19,234 nt of DNA from a virus. The stretch is taken from the UHGV virus genome UHGV-1599518. The stretch is one strand, 5' to 3'. This document shows, piece after piece, positions 5,041 through 8,559 of the stretch. How positions within the stretch are numbered: position 1 is the first letter of the stretch; each line of letters starts with the position of its first letter. The position numbers were made by a program, and so were the translations under genes. The notes below the pieces were generated by a model. That model did no database searches. It had not been told where the DNA came from and saw nothing but the letters and a program-made list of their open reading frames with translations.

Positions 5041-8000
5041 TTACTTATTTATTGTCTCCGCGATATCAGCCAGAATGGCCTCCAGTCGCTCTCCTTCTTC
5101 CGGTCGGAAGTACAGGATATTCGGGTTAAATCCGTAGAAGACGGTTGCATCAAGCTCTGGGAAGTACTCCTTACAACCAATCAGATCTGATGGTTTACTC
5201 TTATTGTTAAATAGTGCGGTTGAACGACTACCACACGTCAAAATGTAGGTTGGTCGTACAAGATTAATTTCTTCCCGCATAAAGTCTGTGAACTGGCCTA
5301 TCTCGTCTTTGGTATAGTCTTTCTCTTTGTCCTTAACCTTCTTACAAACACCCGTGACATAAAGATCGCCCATGCGCAGATCTCCAACTGTCAGTAGTTT
5401 TGCCTTAAAGTCGTCGTATCCGTTCTCCATGAAGTAGCCGGTACGAGCGTCATTGCCGTTCGCATTGTCCAGAATGATCATGATTTTGGGTTTAATACCA
5501 ATAGTCGGGCGTATCAACTCCTCACCCAAGCCCATTTCAGCCGCCATACGTGTCATGAGTACGTTGATTTCGGCAGAACGCTTAGGATTCATTTCGAACG
5601 GACGTGATGCTTTAACAGCGTCAATGATGAGATTGCCCATCAGCTCAGCCTGGTCGCGCAGTCGTTCAGGATCAGTTGCTGGCAGACTGCCTGGCTCAAT
5701 TGACGCAAAAGCCCCTACTTTATGAAGCGACTCGCGTACACGACTGTTACATGCACGCTTCTCGACCGCTTCATCGAATTGTGCCACTGACTCGAATTTG
5801 CCACCAACTTTCTCACGCGCACGCATAATTGCCTGACAACCATTTTCAGAACAGCCTTTCACAGCAGAGAATGGCGCATACAGTGCCTGACTGCCGTCTT
5901 CGAGTGTGCGGATCTCAATTCGGTTAGATGACACATTAACGTCTGGTGGCAATACGCGAATGCCATAGGTCAGCGCATCCTTCACCAGCCCCTGATGCTT
6001 ATCCTCGCCCAGAATGGTGAGCGCAGCTGCGAAGAACTCAGCAGGGTAGTGCGTCTTTAGCCACATAGACTGATAACTGATTAAAGAATAAGCAACGGAG
6101 TGTGATTTATTGAACTGATAGGCTCCGTTTTTCTCAAATGCAGTCCATATCTCTTTTGCCTTCGTCTCAGACAGACCTGGATGTGACGTTGTAACGCGCA
6201 CAACTGGCATTGGCAGCTTCACTCCATGCTCCAACGCCTCTTCAACTGTCCTCAGAGTACCGTCCTCGCATTTAAAATGTTCTGCGCGATGAATCCGTTG
6301 TATTGCGCCATTTTCAAGCTCTACGTCGATCCACCCAGCTTGAGCCTGAATGACAAATTTCTCACCCATGCTCCTCATCTTTTCCATGTTCTTCTTACCG
6401 ATTGCTGAACGCACACCATCCGCCTCGGCCATTGTGAAACCAGCAAGAAGCCTTGTTGCGTTCATCGTTTGTTCCTGATAGAGAATCACTCCATTTGTTT
6501 CAGAGGTCAGTTCATCCAAGACAGGATGTAGTGATGTAGGCGTCATAAATCCTTTCGCAACGGAAACATAGTCATCCAACATGCCGGATTGAATCGGTCC
6601 CGGTCGGAAGAGGGCGGTAGTTGCGACAACGGTTTTGAAACTCATTGGCTCGATGCCACCGCCCAGATCTTTAAGCAGCTTACGCATGGGGCCGGACTCC
6701 AGCTGGAATACGCCCTGCGTGTACCCTGCAGCGAACCCATCCAGAACCTTGCGATCGTCCAGTGGGATAGCGTCGAGATTGATGTCTTCACCGGTACTCT
6801 CTTTGATGTAGCGTTTCGCGCTATCCAGAAGATCGAGTGTTGCCAGACCGAGAACGTCCAACTTAATCAGCCCCATCGCCTCGCAGTAACGTTTATCGAA
6901 CGCAATACATCGAGCATTGCCACGCAGCTCGACGGGCGTGCGCTCTACTAATGGAACGCCAGCGACGATCATCCCCGCAGCGTGACGACCAAAACCACGC
7001 ATCAGGCTTTGCAGCTTACACGCCGCTTTGAACGCTTCCGGGTTTTTCGTGGCGTATTTGTCCAGGCTGGCCAGTTGCTCGCGCAGCTCTTCCAGAGACA
7101 GGCTGTCGTCCTCCATATTCTTGAACTCTTTGGATACCGCCATATCCGCAGCATCGACACCGTAAATACGTGCAGTGTCACGCAGCGCAGATGCCGCGCC
7201 CAGATAGGTGAAGTTCGGAATGCCTGCAACGTAATCTTCGCCGTAGCGTTCATTCAGATACTCGATCACCTCATGGCGACGTGCCTGGCTGAAGTCCAAG
7301 TCCGCATCCGGCAAGTCGAGACGCTCAGGGTTGATGAAACGCTCAAACAGAAGACCGTGACGGATTGGGTCGACGTTGGTTATGCCTATGCACCACGCCA
7401 CCAGAGAACCGGCAGAGGAACCACGACCAGGCCCGACAGGAATGCCAGTTTCACGGCTGTGATTCATCAGATCGCGTACCATCAGGAAGTAACCACAGAA
7501 TCCCAGGCGAGTCAGCGTGTCCATTTCGTACTTTAGCCGCTCAACATAAACCCTGTTCTCAGAAGCAGGTGGTGTGTATCCAAACTCTTTTGTGGTAAGA
7601 CGTTTACGCAGCCCTGCAACAGCCAGTTTCATCAGCGTTGCAGGTTCGTCGTCTGCCATCTTGGGCAGTGCTGGTGGCAATTCATGCCAGCGCCATGTGC
7701 AGGCATCGATAATGGTATCCTGCGTTGTTGAGGCCATTGCAGCTGTTACCGGCACATCCATGCGAACGGAGAAGGCTTTAAGCGCCTCAAGGAGATGGCG
7801 GCGACCATTGACGGCGTTATCTCGCTGGTGGGGGATACGCAGACGATGCGGCTGGTCGATTTTGATGTTGTTCGTAACCATGTGCGCAATGTCTTTAATG
7901 TCTGCATCGTCGATCGATTCGTAATAAGCGGGATAGAACGCCACTGGCTCTATTTTCAATGCGCTGGCGACTTTCATCGCCCGGACGTTAATCTGGTCGT

Positions 8001-8559
8001 AGAATGGGGTAGGGTGCGGATAAACCACACTATAGAAGTTGTCTTTTCCACCCGCTGTAATCAGTGTGCTTATGATTTTTGCAAAATCGTTGCGTTGGAA
8101 CACGCTACCGATGTCGGAAGTAAGCAGGATGATGTTGCCTTTGGCATATGTAGAAACCAACTGTTCGAGCGAGAGACGCGGTACAAAGTAGAACTGTTCT
8201 CGTGTGTTGGCCGCCGTCATTAGTTCGCAGATGTCGCGATATCCTTGCTCATTTTTAATTAGAGCGGTAAACGAGTAGTTACGTCCCCGCTCTAATGATT
8301 CCATACATCTCATAGATTCTTTAGCAAGTTTAGCCCGGTGCTCGTATGTGGGATCATCAACAATGTTTAGTTTCACACCACAAATAACCGCCATGTCGTC
8401 ACCAGCGGCACGTTGTAGTGGAATAACGCTCGCAATATTCATGCTATCTGCTGAAATTACAGCGGTGTAGCCAGCTTCTCTGGCAATCTTCACCGCGTTT
8501 TCTGCTTTTAGAGCCGACTCCCCAAGTGAGAAGTCAGTTCGAACCATCAGTGCCTTCAT
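5041..8559 (-). CDS. dnaE: DNA polymerase III alpha subunit-like (DnaE-type C-family polymerase) with a C-terminal UDG-like domain
   Basis: 1172 aa. Contains GYFLMVRDL, GPGRGSSAGSLVAWCIGIT, LLFERFINPERLDLPDADLDF, FRPGPIQSGM and YQFNKSHSVAYSLISYQSMWLKTHYPAEF, the DnaE palm/fingers signatures. ATG 8559 with SD AAAGG. Confidence 0.9.
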   Translation of the reverse strand: MKALMVRTDFSLGESALKAENAVKIAREAGYTAVISADSMNIASVIPLQRAAGDDMAVICGVKLNIVDDPTYEHRAKLAKESMRCMESLERGRNYSFTALIKNEQGYRDICELMTAANTREQFYFVPRLSLEQLVSTYAKGNIILLTSDIGSVFQRNDFAKIISTLITAGGKDNFYSVVYPHPTPFYDQINVRAMKVASALKIEPVAFYPAYYESIDDADIKDIAHMVTNNIKIDQPHRLRIPHQRDNAVNGRRHLLEALKAFSVRMDVPVTAAMASTTQDTIIDACTWRWHELPPALPKMADDEPATLMKLAVAGLRKRLTTKEFGYTPPASENRVYVERLKYEMDTLTRLGFCGYFLMVRDLMNHSRETGIPVGPGRGSSAGSLVAWCIGITNVDPIRHGLLFERFINPERLDLPDADLDFSQARRHEVIEYLNERYGEDYVAGIPNFTYLGAASALRDTARIYGVDAADMAVSKEFKNMEDDSLSLEELREQLASLDKYATKNPEAFKAACKLQSLMRGFGRHAAGMIVAGVPLVERTPVELRGNARCIAFDKRYCEAMGLIKLDVLGLATLDLLDSAKRYIKESTGEDINLDAIPLDDRKVLDGFAAGYTQGVFQLESGPMRKLLKDLGGGIEPMSFKTVVATTALFRPGPIQSGMLDDYVSVAKGFMTPTSLHPVLDELTSETNGVILYQEQTMNATRLLAGFTMAEADGVRSAIGKKNMEKMRSMGEKFVIQAQAGWIDVELENGAIQRIHRAEHFKCEDGTLRTVEEALEHGVKLPMPVVRVTTSHPGLSETKAKEIWTAFEKNGAYQFNKSHSVAYSLISYQSMWLKTHYPAEFFAAALTILGEDKHQGLVKDALTYGIRVLPPDVNVSSNRIEIRTLEDGSQALYAPFSAVKGCSENGCQAIMRAREKVGGKFESVAQFDEAVEKRACNSRVRESLHKVGAFASIEPGSLPATDPERLRDQAELMGNLIIDAVKASRPFEMNPKRSAEINVLMTRMAAEMGLGEELIRPTIGIKPKIMIILDNANGNDARTGYFMENGYDDFKAKLLTVGDLRMGDLYVTGVCKKVKDKEKDYTKDEIGQFTDFMREEINLVRPTYILTCGSRSTALFNNKSKPSDLIGCKEYFPELDATVFYGFNPNILYFRPEEGERLEAILADIAETINK

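What the first reader, a model, noticed from the sequence alone, without database searches (positions are those of the whole stretch)
5041..8559. DnaE-type polymerase whose C-terminal ~160 residues resemble a family-4 uracil-DNA glycosylase fold with an altered catalytic motif
After the palm/fingers/HhH region, the usual OB-fold/tau-binding tail is replaced by KIMIILDNANGNDARTGYFMENGYDDFKAKLLTVGDLRMGDLYVTGVCKKV...DEIGQFTDFMREEINLVRPTYILTCGSRSTALF. This aligns position-for-position with the family-4 UDG core as I recall it (…LMIVGEGPG…GRPFVG…L…GI…VYITN.VKCRPP…E…C…L…I.L..P..IV.LG). The catalytic GEGPG is replaced by LDNANG, so the domain may bind uracil or abasic DNA without cutting, or use different chemistry. 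The N-terminal PHP domain also lacks the leading His-x-His (MVRTDFS where HxH is expected). There is an extra ~55-residue insertion before the YQFNKSHS block.
Basis: partly seen in the sequence, partly recalled or inferred. Interest (0 to 1): 0.6.

Follow-up and report, generated by a model that had tools for sequence, protein, structure and literature searches.

The report
Phage DnaE polymerase with dead UDG-like tail
The replicative DNA polymerase of an SSU5-type phage-plasmid ends in a domain that evolved from a uracil-DNA glycosylase. That domain has lost the residues needed to recognise and cut uracil, so it most likely serves as a non-catalytic part of the replication machine.

Summary
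ORF 5041-8559 lies on the minus strand and encodes a 1172-aa C-family (DnaE-type) polymerase of an SSU5-like phage-plasmid. After the HhH domain there is no OB fold or tau-binding domain.

Residues ~991-1172 are homologous to family-4 uracil-DNA glycosylases:
- A profile of the tail against PDB sequences gives E = 1.6e-7, and all 24 hits are family-4 UDG or UdgX.
- TIGR00758 matches at E = 3.7e-8.
- The AlphaFold model (pLDDT 85.7) matches 4ZBX, 1L9G and 1UI0 at Foldseek E ~1e-10 to 1e-11, TM 0.72-0.80.

All four defining sequence features are missing. GE(A/G)PG is LDNAN, the uracil-reading Asn is Gly, the motif-B His is Asn, and there is no CxxC.

The tail is under strong purifying selection (dN/dS ~0.02). 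It is shared by at least 99 diverged DnaE-linked clusters, and only 3 of them keep the canonical residues. I read it as a conserved pseudo-glycosylase module standing in for the OB/tau-binding C-terminus; its exact role is inferred.

The PHP domain has also lost its metal ligands; the nearest annotated phage encodes a separate epsilon-like exonuclease. The ~50-aa insertion marks the place where relatives are split by an HNH homing-endonuclease gene.

I found no paper describing a C-family polymerase with a UDG tail. Pfam does flag UDG on relatives.

The parts
5041..8559 (-). Whole gene: 1172-aa C-family (DnaE-type) DNA polymerase of an SSU5-like phage-plasmid. The stop codon is 5041-5043.
   Evidence: ORF list and translation. 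Pfam PHP, pol3_alpha, finger and HHH_6. TIGR00594 scores 623 bits against a cutoff of 434. The gene is 94.8% identical in nucleotides to the Escherichia phage Cyrano gene and 87% to the Salmonella phage SSU5 gene, both annotated 'DNA polymerase III alpha subunit'.
8032..8544 (-). PHP domain (aa 6-176) with its metal ligands replaced. HxH becomes M5-V6-R7. Further ligand positions read S39, K63, S96, D149 and P..Y.
   Evidence: Pfam PHP at 50 bits. In the alignment with 50 family members, relatives with intact PHP read HLHxHS / TDH / GCE / YH / MPH / NDxHY, while this clade does not. phmmer of aa 1-300 against PDB finds nothing.
6847..7635 (-). Palm / nucleotidyltransferase domain (aa 309-571). 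The PDADLDF motif (D418, D420) is kept, and KLDVLGL (D568, at 6844-6864) follows directly.
   Evidence: Pfam PF07733, E 3.6e-73. Motifs read from the sequence. The correspondence to E. coli D401/D403/D555 comes from my own knowledge of E. coli alpha.
6340..6840 (-). Fingers domain (aa 574-740).
   Evidence: Pfam PF17657, E 1.8e-43.
6181..6336 (-). Clade-specific insertion of ~50 aa (aa 742-793), a small beta-rich module. In Klebsiella and Enterobacter relatives the polymerase gene is split here into two ORFs by an HNH homing-endonuclease gene.
   Evidence: The insertion is absent from P0117/P0118/P0126 and from E. coli alpha. AlphaFold2 on alignment A2 gives pLDDT above 90 across it: four strands, a helix, then a fifth strand. 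L004/L005 carry a 787-aa ORF, a NUMOD4/HNH_3 ORF and a 389-aa ORF in that order.
5695..5964 (-). Helix-hairpin-helix domain (aa 866-955). This is the last segment alignable to bacterial DnaE.
   Evidence: Pfam HHH_6, E 3e-16. The alignment to E. coli alpha stops at residue 895 and to Taq alpha at 944.
5629..5664 (-). Conserved linker motif R966-LRDQAELMGNL-977. Q970-A-E-L-M974 resembles the internal beta-clamp-binding motif QADMF of E. coli alpha. This is a lead only.
   Evidence: The motif R-L-[RK]-D-Q-x-E-L-[LM]-[PG]-G-L is conserved across the phage family. The E. coli motif at 920-924 is quoted in PMC3201878. The HMM alignment to E. coli and Taq did not reach this segment.
5044..5589 (-). 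C-terminal domain (aa 991-1172) derived from a family-4 UDG and lacking the catalytic and uracil-recognition residues.
   Evidence: dN/dS is ~0.02 against IMG/VR relatives.
5458..5472 (-). Motif-A equivalent L1030-D-N-A-N1034, in place of GE(A/G)PG.
   Evidence: HMM alignment to 1UI0. Among 99 DnaE-linked relatives the Glu position is Asp in 81 and the Pro is kept in 80. Motif definition from PMC10359453.
5350..5352 (-). G1070, at the position of the uracil-reading Asn (Thermus N80, UdgX N91).
   Evidence: Asn occupies this position in only 4 of 99 DnaE-linked relatives.
5122..5127 (-). N1145-P1146, in place of the motif-B His-Pro.
   Evidence: His occupies this position in only 4 of 99 relatives (Asn 57, Ser 24, Thr 12).

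Best explanation
The gene encodes the replicative C-family polymerase of an SSU5-type phage-plasmid. Its polymerase core is intact (palm aspartates, fingers, HhH). Two accessory domains that are enzymes elsewhere have become non-catalytic here.

At the C-terminus, the OB fold and tau-binding domain of bacterial DnaE are replaced by a domain descended from a family-4 uracil-DNA glycosylase (shown). That domain keeps the alpha/beta/alpha core. It has lost GE(A/G)PG, the uracil-reading Asn, the motif-B His and the Fe-S cysteines (shown). It is nevertheless under strong purifying selection (shown).

I infer that it no longer excises uracil and works as a structural or binding module at the spot where the OB domain normally meets the incoming template strand. 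It would either hold template DNA or tether the polymerase to another replisome protein. Processivity may come from the host beta clamp through the conserved QAELM-type motif just upstream (inferred, weak).

The PHP domain is likewise a dead scaffold. Proofreading is probably supplied in trans by the epsilon-like exonuclease that the closest annotated relative encodes (inferred).

A few distant relatives keep both an intact PHP and a canonical UDG tail. The likely ancestor was therefore a DnaE with an active UDG that scanned the template, as SP15-like A-family polymerases do (inferred).
For: Homology and fold:
- Pfam UDG matches below threshold at E 0.018.
- PDB phmmer hits are all family-4 UDG.
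- Profile against PDB gives 1.6e-7 to 4.7e-6, with 24 of 24 hits family-4 UDG/UdgX.
- TIGR00758 matches at 3.7e-8.
- The AF2 model has pLDDT 85.7. Foldseek PDB best hit is 2.2e-11 with the top 36 all family 4. Foldseek against viral structures hits stand-alone phage UDGs and PolA-fused UDG domains, including SP-15.

Loss of the catalytic set:
- Alignments.
- Among 99 DnaE-linked cluster representatives, Asn is kept in 4 and His in 4. All three canonical residues survive in 3 (P0259, P0262, P0266). CxxC is kept in 42 of 95, and not here.
- Motif definitions come from PMC10359453.

The domain is functional and not decaying: dN/dS is ~0.02, and 133 clusters match at E <= 1e-10.

It replaces the OB/tau region: there is no Pfam hit after residue 955, and the E. 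coli and Taq alignments end at 895 and 944.

PHP decay correlates with UDG decay.

The closest annotated phage encodes a PolIII-epsilon-like exonuclease, helicase, primase and ligase. It has no annotated clamp, clamp loader, UDG or dUTPase.

Precedents:
- N4-like PolA carries a UDG domain that lost its catalytic residues, while SPO1- and SP15-like PolA carry active ones (bioRxiv 10.1101/2025.03.26.645540).
- A UDG domain has been proposed as an intrinsic processivity factor (PMC3201878).
Against: No biochemistry was possible, so 'inactive' rests on sequence.

An Asp (D1031) is nearly invariant where family 4 has Glu. Asn replaces the motif-B His, as in family-2 MUG/TDG enzymes, which are active. 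An altered chemistry is therefore not excluded.

The tail of this clade is acidic (25 K+R against 29 D+E; pI 4.8, with a family median of 7.25 and a range of 4.7-9.5). That does not favour simple non-specific DNA binding and leaves the choice between DNA and a protein partner open.

The clamp-binding reading of QAELM is a pattern match only; the HMM alignment did not reach the E. coli motif.

Confidence: 0.65

Rival explanations
1. The tail is still a DNA glycosylase with changed chemistry or specificity. For example, it might use D1031 and the Asn of motif B and remove a base other than uracil from the template ahead of the polymerase, as the UDG domain of SP15-like A-family polymerases does for dU.
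For: The fold is intact and confidently modelled. D1031 is Asp in 81 of 99 relatives and Pro is kept in 80. Purifying selection is strong. Family-2 enzymes work without the motif-B His (motifs listed in PMC10359453). Active polymerase-fused UDGs exist. Three DnaE relatives keep the full canonical set and pass the Pfam UDG threshold.
Against: The uracil-reading Asn is Gly/Ser/Ala/Thr in 91 of 99 relatives. The two glycines of motif A are lost. N1032, the only residue that could mimic the MUG/TDG catalytic Asn, is N/T/G/S/A/Y among relatives only 35-80% identical. The Arg of motif B that binds substrate in UdgX is not conserved. The domain of this clade is acidic.
Confidence: 0.17
2. The tail is a non-cutting sensor. 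It binds uracil or abasic sites in the template and stalls or modulates the polymerase. This is the reader's suggestion, and it would be analogous to the uracil pocket of archaeal B-family polymerases.
For: The fold and its position at the template-entry side of DnaE (in place of the OB domain) fit the idea. UdgX shows that family-4 folds can bind uracil-DNA tightly.
Against: The residues that give uracil specificity (the Asn, the motif-B His and the motif-A backbone glycines) are exactly the ones replaced. Pocket-lining positions vary within the clade.
Confidence: 0.1
3. The resemblance is chance or compositional, and the tail is really an OB fold or another unrelated fold.
For: Pfam UDG and TIGR00758 both score below their curated cutoffs (15.5 against 24.3 bits, and 33.3 against 125.3 bits).
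Against: Independent sequence-profile and structure searches give only UDG-superfamily hits at E 1e-7 to 1e-11. Relatives at 52-61% identity pass the Pfam UDG threshold. More distant relatives form a graded series up to fully canonical motifs.
Confidence: 0.01

Closest known systems
Family-4 uracil-DNA glycosylases (UdgA; Thermus thermophilus 1UI0, Thermotoga maritima 1L9G/1VK2, Sulfolobus tokodaii 4ZBX) and their offshoot UdgX
   Same: Same alpha/beta/alpha fold with a four-stranded parallel sheet. Homology is detectable over ~130-190 residues, including the N-terminal helix, Y-x-T, the conserved Lys after it, and the Pro of motif B.
   Different: No GE(A/G)PG, no uracil-reading Asn, no motif-B His and no Fe-S cysteines. 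The domain is acidic and is fused to the C-terminus of a polymerase. It scores far below the curated family cutoffs.
Phage A-family polymerases with an N-terminal UDG domain: N4-like (catalytic residues lost), SPO1-like and SP15-like (active; they read dU ahead of the fork)
   Same: A replicative phage polymerase covalently fused to a UDG-superfamily domain, with both active and degenerate versions in nature. Foldseek matches the tail to these domains, including SP-15.
   Different: Those are A-family enzymes with the UDG at the N-terminus. Here the polymerase is C-family and the domain is C-terminal, replacing the OB and tau-binding domains.
Bacterial DnaE1 (E. coli Pol III alpha subunit)
   Same: PHP, palm, thumb, fingers and HhH architecture with conserved palm aspartates and the FNKSH block. 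The PHP domain is non-catalytic as in E. coli, with a separate epsilon-like exonuclease in the element.
   Different: No OB fold and no tau-binding domain. It falls below the DnaE1 equivalog cutoff (673 against 1002 bits). It has an extra ~50-aa insertion and a UDG-like tail.
Poxvirus D4/E4 uracil-DNA glycosylase in the polymerase processivity complex
   Same: A UDG-fold protein used as an architectural part of a viral replicase, a role proposed to be independent of base excision (discussed in PMC3201878 and PMC4889955).
   Different: D4 is a separate, catalytically competent family-1-type UDG bound through A20 to a B-family polymerase.
DnaE-type polymerases with a canonical C-terminal UDG (P0259, P0262, P0266)
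   Same: Same overall architecture of PHP, palm, fingers, HhH and UDG.
   Different: They keep the GEAPG-type motif, Asn, His-Pro and an intact PHP HxH, and they pass the Pfam UDG threshold. The window protein keeps none of these.

Membership tests
Family-4 uracil-DNA glycosylase (UdgA; PF03167 / TIGR00758) | UDG-superfamily alpha/beta/alpha fold with a central four-stranded parallel sheet | tested here: met
   The AF2 model has pLDDT 85.7, with strands at tail residues 53-60, 93-102, 132-136 and 165-170. Foldseek gives 4ZBX at E 2.2e-11 with TM 0.77/0.80, and the top 36 hits are all family-4 UDG/UdgX.
Family-4 uracil-DNA glycosylase (UdgA; PF03167 / TIGR00758) | Score above the curated family thresholds | tested here: not met
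   Pfam UDG scores 15.5 bits against a gathering score of 24.3. TIGR00758 scores 33.3 bits against a cutoff of 125.3. Homology itself is significant.
Family-4 uracil-DNA glycosylase (UdgA; PF03167 / TIGR00758) | Motif A, GE(A/G)PG | tested here: not met
   It aligns to L1030-D-N-A-N1034. Motif as defined in PMC10359453.
Family-4 uracil-DNA glycosylase (UdgA; PF03167 / TIGR00758) | Uracil-recognising Asn in the T-N segment (Thermus N80, UdgX N91) | tested here: not met
   The sequence is Y1067-V-T-G1070, with Gly at the Asn position.
Family-4 uracil-DNA glycosylase (UdgA; PF03167 / TIGR00758) | Motif B, HP(S/A)... | tested here: not met
   The sequence is F1144-N-P-N, with Asn at the His position.
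Family-4 uracil-DNA glycosylase (UdgA; PF03167 / TIGR00758) | Four cysteines binding a [4Fe-4S] cluster, including an N-terminal CxxC | tested here: not met
   The domain has only C1072, C1109 and C1129 and no CxxC. Of 95 DnaE-linked relatives, 42 still have CxxC upstream of strand 1. That family 4 carries the cluster is from my own knowledge.
Family-4 uracil-DNA glycosylase (UdgA; PF03167 / TIGR00758) | Uracil excision activity | not testable with these tools
   Requires an enzyme assay.
C-family DNA polymerase (Pol III alpha / DnaE superfamily) | PHP, palm (pol3_alpha), fingers and HhH domains above threshold | tested here: met
   Pfam gives 246.8, 148.2, 59.8 and 50.2 bits, all above gathering scores. 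TIGR00594 scores 623 bits against 434.
C-family DNA polymerase (Pol III alpha / DnaE superfamily) | Catalytic palm aspartates (E. coli D401, D403, D555) | tested here: met
   P-D418-A-D420-L-D-F and K-L-D568-V-L-G-L are read from the sequence. The E. coli numbering is from my own knowledge.
Bacterial DnaE1 orthologue (NF004226 equivalog) | Equivalog score, and an OB fold plus tau-binding C-terminal domain | tested here: not met
   The score is 673 bits against a cutoff of 1002, and the match covers only aa 4-744 plus a second stretch. There is no OB hit. Alignments to E. coli and Taq alpha stop at 895 and 944.
PHP-domain proofreading exonuclease (as in Taq or M. tuberculosis DnaE1) | Metal-binding His/Asp/Glu set starting with HxH | tested here: not met
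   M5-V6-R7 stands in place of HxH. Further ligand columns read S39, K63, S96, D149 and P..Y, where PHP-intact relatives have H, E, H, C and D..H.
Beta-clamp-binding motif (QL[SD]LF type; E. coli alpha internal QADMF) | A Q-x-x-[LM]-[FLM] peptide in the linker after the HhH domain that binds the clamp | tested here: inconclusive
   Q970-A-E-L-M974 fits the pattern and is conserved family-wide. The profile alignment to E. coli and Taq alpha did not extend to their motifs. Binding is not testable here.
Intein / Hint domain (considered for the aa 742-793 insertion) | Hint fold plus splicing residues (Cys/Ser at position 1, and His-Asn followed by Cys/Ser/Thr) | tested here: not met
   The top 7 Foldseek hits are DnaE inteins, but at E 0.012-0.066 with TM below 0.4. 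There is no Pfam Hint or intein hit. The insertion starts G-W and ends S-H-P-G, with no conserved nucleophiles.

The most novel reading that the evidence does not exclude
The tail is not dead. It would be a template-strand 'read-ahead' module of a C-family replicase that recognises, and possibly excises, something other than uracil. Candidates are another deaminated, oxidised or modified base, or an abasic site, handled through the conserved Asp of motif A and the Asn-Pro of motif B.

That would make it a C-family counterpart of the SP15-like PolA-UDG enzymes and of the archaeal PolB uracil pocket. It would also have been retuned across at least 99 sequence clusters of DnaE-type polymerases, presumably phage-encoded.
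Probability: 0.12. Interest if true: 0.75.

Novelty: new variant of a known kind. Interest (0 to 1): 0.5.

Why it matters
A 2011 survey of viral replicases reported the C-terminus of phage C-family polymerases as 'not similar to E. coli alpha' and left it unassigned (PMC3201878). This result assigns it: in a large family of DnaE-type polymerases it is a UDG-derived domain.

UDG domains were already known attached to A-family polymerases (in cis) and to poxvirus B-family polymerases (in trans). With this C-family case, three unrelated polymerase families have recruited a UDG fold. The recurrence suggests the fold is useful at a replication fork beyond base excision.

The family also offers a natural series for study. 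It runs from members with canonical UDG and PHP residues to members in which both have lost those residues while selection remains strong. That is useful material for studying how enzymes turn into scaffolds.

SSU5-type phage-plasmids are common in clinical Enterobacteriaceae, so knowing how their replicase is built has practical interest.

The claim is modest. Automated Pfam annotation already marks UDG on some relatives, and the function remains inferred.

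Tried and rejected
- **OB fold or other fold for the tail.** Rejected: there is no Pfam hit, and all sequence and structure hits are UDG superfamily.
- **Tail-only word-indexed homologue search.** It returned only close fragments and was of little use. The full-length search and the exhaustive profile search were needed.
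- **phmmer of the PHP region against PDB.** It found nothing. I used a family alignment instead.
- **N1032 as a MUG/TDG-like catalytic Asn.** Rejected, because the position varies among close relatives.
- **Demonstrating the clamp-binding motif by homology.** A 21-sequence profile of HhH plus linker aligned to E. coli and Taq alpha only up to residues 895 and 944, short of their motifs. It stays a pattern-level lead.
- **The insertion as an intein or intein relic.** The top Foldseek hits are DnaE/DnaB inteins but are not significant. There is no Pfam support and there are no splicing residues. The genuine intein in relative P0165 sits 24 residues upstream, at S718/A719, and not at this site.
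- **M784 as a relic start codon of a re-fused gene.** Other fused relatives have no Met there, so the direction of the change (fusion or split) is unresolved.
- **Literature searches for a DnaE/C-family polymerase with a UDG domain.** and three papers read found no description. The library covers open-access papers and bioRxiv only, so absence is not proof.
- **IMG/VR scan with the tail profile.** It returned only relatives of 89% identity or more, because the search patterns were narrow. It was used for the dN/dS estimate, not for diversity.

Full report
**What is at the coordinates.** The ORF at 5041-8559 is real but lies on the minus strand. It encodes 1172 residues.

The gene is 94.8% identical in nucleotides to the 'DNA polymerase III alpha subunit' gene of Escherichia phage Cyrano. 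It is ~87% identical to that of Salmonella phage SSU5 and ~80% to Klebsiella phage-plasmids. The window is therefore part of an SSU5-type phage-plasmid.

Neighbouring genes are:
- a 5'-3' exonuclease, a gp32-like SSB, a UvsY-like protein and a cold-shock protein;
- a CobS-like AAA+ protein and a CobT/VWA protein directly upstream of the polymerase;
- an integrase and a Tn3-family transposase.

**Domain anatomy.** Pfam finds PHP (6-176), the pol3_alpha palm (309-571), fingers (574-740) and HHH_6 (866-955), all above threshold. Nothing is found after residue 955. TIGR00594 (C-family superfamily) is passed, but the bacterial DnaE1 equivalog is not (673 against 1002 bits). The palm motifs PD418AD420LDF and KLD568VLGL are intact. 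Alignments to E. coli and Thermus aquaticus alpha subunits stop at their residues 895 and 944, at the end of the HhH domain. The OB fold and tau-binding domain are absent.

**The tail is a family-4 UDG derivative.**
- Taken alone (aa 974-1172), the tail gives a sub-threshold Pfam UDG hit (E 0.018). In a search of all PDB sequences it hits only family-4 UDGs.
- A profile of 13 tails (35-82% identical) hits Thermus thermophilus UDG-A 1UI0 at 1.6e-7, Thermotoga 1L9G at 2.6e-7 and Sulfolobus 4ZBX at 4.7e-6. UdgX entries follow, and all 24 hits are family 4.
- NCBIfam TIGR00758 matches at 3.7e-8.
- AlphaFold2 on that alignment gives a confident model: pLDDT 85.7, pTM 0.86, and a four-stranded parallel sheet flanked by helices.
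- Foldseek against the PDB returns 36 family-4 UDG/UdgX structures first (best E 2.2e-11, TM 0.77/0.80). TDG, MUG and family-5 enzymes follow near 1e-5.
- Against viral models it finds stand-alone phage UDGs and the UDG domains fused to A-family phage polymerases, SP-15 included.
- Relatives at 52-61% identity already carry a precomputed or recomputed Pfam UDG call above threshold.

**The catalytic set is gone.** In the HMM alignment to 1UI0:
- GEGPG pairs with L1030-D-N-A-N1034;
- the uracil-reading N80 pairs with G1070;
- the motif-B H155 pairs with N1145.

The motif definitions GE(A/G)PG, HPS(S/A)(L/V)(L/V)R and the T-N segment are those given in PMC10359453. The domain has three scattered cysteines and no CxxC.

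N1032 sits where MUG/TDG have their catalytic Asn. That position reads N, T, G, S, A or Y among relatives only 35-80% identical, so it is not a conserved catalytic residue.

**How widespread this is.** An exhaustive profile search of 1.84 billion cluster representatives found 1274 proteins at E <= 1e-3 and 133 at E <= 1e-10. In the top 150, 99 are DnaE-linked. They are either full-length enzymes of ~1080-1140 aa with the tail at the C-terminus, or ~380-400-aa C-terminal halves of split enzymes.

Across these 99:

| Position (family-4 residue) | Residue in the 99 relatives |
|---|---|
| Motif-A Glu | Asp in 81, Glu in 6 |
| Motif-A Pro | kept in 80 |
| Uracil-reading Asn | Asn in only 4 |
| Motif-B His | His in only 4 (Asn 57, Ser 24, Thr 12) |
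| Upstream CxxC | survives in 42 of 95 |

Only P0259, P0262 and P0266 keep Glu, Asn and His together. These three pass the Pfam UDG threshold and also keep an intact PHP. The family therefore shows a graded series from canonical to degenerate tails. The window protein sits at the degenerate end.

**It is not a decaying relic.** Against IMG/VR relatives 89-97% identical in protein, the tail has dN/dS of about 0.02. For example, dN is 0.013 and dS is 0.56 for L018; dS is saturated for the more distant relatives.

**PHP domain.** In a 51-sequence alignment (the query plus 50 family members), PHP-intact relatives read HLHxHS, TDH, GCE, YH, C, MPH and NDxHY at the ligand columns. This protein has M5-V-R7, S39, K63, S96, D149 and P..Y instead. 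The same loss runs through the whole degenerate-tail group.

The nearest annotated genome, Cyrano, encodes a separate 'PolIII subunit epsilon' exonuclease, a helicase, a primase, a ligase, RNase H and UvsW. It has no annotated sliding clamp, clamp loader, UDG or dUTPase. By analogy with E. coli alpha, the dead PHP may simply dock the exonuclease. This is inference.

**Linker motif.** Between the HhH domain and the tail lies a family-wide motif, R-L-[RK]-D-Q-x-E-L-[LM]-[PG]-G-L. Here it reads R966-LRDQAELMGNL. Q970-AELM resembles the internal clamp-binding QADMF (920-924) of E. coli alpha, quoted in PMC3201878. A profile alignment did not reach that part of E. coli or Taq alpha, so this stays a lead.

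**The insertion.** Residues 742-793 are absent from E. coli alpha and from fused relatives P0117, P0118 and P0126. In Klebsiella and Enterobacter relatives the polymerase is two ORFs of 787 and 389 aa, with a NUMOD4/HNH_3 homing-endonuclease ORF between them. The break falls inside this insertion. Many very divergent ~390-aa C-terminal halves start at the same place with MK[IV].

AlphaFold2 models the insertion confidently as four strands, a helix and a fifth strand. The fifth strand corresponds to the N-terminus of the C-terminal half in split enzymes. This suggests that the two halves assemble by strand complementation.

The top Foldseek hits for this module are DnaE and DnaB inteins, but only at E 0.012-0.066. 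There is no Pfam support and there are no splicing residues. I do not call it an intein. A genuine intein with a LAGLIDADG domain sits 24 residues upstream in relative P0165, so this stretch is a hot spot for selfish elements.

**Mechanism.**
- *Shown:* the polymerase core is intact. The tail is homologous to family-4 UDG. The defining catalytic and recognition residues and the Fe-S ligands are lost. Purifying selection is strong, and the tail replaces the OB/tau region.
- *Inferred:* the tail no longer excises uracil and acts as a non-catalytic module where the OB domain of DnaE1 meets the template.

Whether it binds DNA or a replisome protein is open. The domain of this clade is acidic (pI 4.8, net about -4), and the family ranges from pI 4.7 to 9.5, which does not favour plain electrostatic DNA binding.

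Precedents support the reading. N4-like A-family polymerases carry a UDG domain that lost its catalytic residues, while SPO1- and SP15-like ones carry active domains that read dU ahead of the fork (bioRxiv 10.1101/2025.03.26.645540). A UDG domain has also been proposed as an intrinsic processivity factor, with poxvirus D4-A20 as the model (PMC3201878 and PMC4889955).

**Rivals.** An altered-chemistry glycosylase cannot be excluded without assays. The conserved Asp and the family-2-like Asn in motif B speak for it. The lost Asn and glycines, the variable pocket positions and the non-conserved substrate-binding Arg speak against it. I give it about 0.17. A non-cutting uracil or AP sensor (about 0.1) is disfavoured because the specificity residues are precisely the ones replaced. 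Chance resemblance or a different fold is excluded.

**Novelty.** Kazlauskas and Venclovas (2011) noted that the region after the fingers in viral C-family polymerases is not similar to E. coli alpha and 'may include different structural domains'. They discussed UDG domains only for A-family enzymes. Their 2016 survey, a 2026 survey of bacterial polymerases and four full-text searches gave no description of a C-family polymerase with a UDG tail.

Automated Pfam annotation does mark UDG on some relatives, so the architecture is visible in databases. I rate it a new variant of a known kind, namely polymerase-UDG fusions. Interest is moderate. The fold assignment is solid, and the series from canonical to degenerate members is attractive, but the function is still inferred.

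Noticed in passing
window 6181-6336 (- strand); L004 4001-8253: In Klebsiella and Enterobacter relatives the polymerase gene is split into 787-aa and 389-aa ORFs by a NUMOD4/HNH_3 homing-endonuclease ORF. The split falls exactly inside the ~50-aa insertion that is in-frame in this window. AlphaFold2 models the insertion as a five-stranded module whose last strand belongs to the C-terminal half.
   Followed up: yes
window 6181-6336 (- strand): The top seven Foldseek PDB hits for the insertion module are DnaE/DnaB inteins (E 0.012-0.066, TM below 0.4). There are no splicing residues and there is no Pfam Hint hit. It could be a Hint-like association module or a coincidence.
   Followed up: partly
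related proteins P0165 (aa 726-1133) and P0243 (aa 540-585): Other members of this polymerase family carry a genuine intein with a LAGLIDADG endonuclease. It is inserted at the equivalent of query S718/A719, 24 residues upstream of the insertion. One member also has a LAGLIDADG domain inside the palm. The region between fingers and FNKSHS is a hot spot for selfish elements.
   Followed up: partly
window 8032-8544 (- strand); related proteins P0252, P0257, P0259, P0262, P0263, P0266: Loss of PHP metal ligands and loss of UDG catalytic residues go together across the family. The three relatives with a fully canonical UDG tail all keep the PHP HxH, and three more PHP-intact relatives have only partly degenerate tails.
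   Followed up: partly
related proteins P0106, P0111, P0128: Some E. coli relatives encode chimeric proteins in which the N-terminal part of this polymerase (PHP, palm, with or without fingers) is joined to a RecA-domain C-terminus (PF00154). A deletion between the polymerase and the nearby RecA/UvsX-like gene is the likely cause.
   Followed up: no
window 8534-12179 (- strand): A CobT/VWA protein (10071-12179), a CobS-like AAA_5 ATPase (8740-9975) and a 67-aa ORF (8534-8737) lie directly upstream of the polymerase. The 67-aa ORF overlaps the polymerase start by 26 nt. The same order is kept in Klebsiella relatives (L004). Their role next to a replicase is unexplained.
   Followed up: no
window 14500-19133: Composition changes sharply at the right end. 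A low-GC stretch (0.32-0.34) at ~14.5-16 kb carries a 302-aa ORF of unknown function (14856-15764, phrog_35492). A higher-GC (0.52-0.56) Tn3-family transposase follows at 16557-19133 on the minus strand. Its match to the N-terminal DUF4158 domain is weak (E 2.9e-4, below threshold) and covers only the last 28 of 165 profile positions, at aa 1-28. This suggests cargo and a transposon inserted next to the integrase (13123-14226).
   Followed up: no
L006/L007 (Escherichia phage Cyrano, OV696614.1): The closest annotated relative encodes a separate PolIII-epsilon-like exonuclease (CYRAN_77), plus helicase, primase, ligase, RNase H, UvsW, MazG-like pyrophosphohydrolase, ThyX and RNR. It has no annotated sliding clamp, clamp loader, UDG or dUTPase.
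   Followed up: partly
window 4738-5040: SSU5 and Klebsiella relatives have a ~141-147-aa gene immediately downstream of the polymerase; it is called DUF7740 in the Klebsiella loci (L004/L005) and annotated 'hypothetical protein' in SSU5. This window has only a 303-nt gap with no ORF of 60 aa or more before the cold-shock protein gene (4426-4737, + strand).
   Followed up: no
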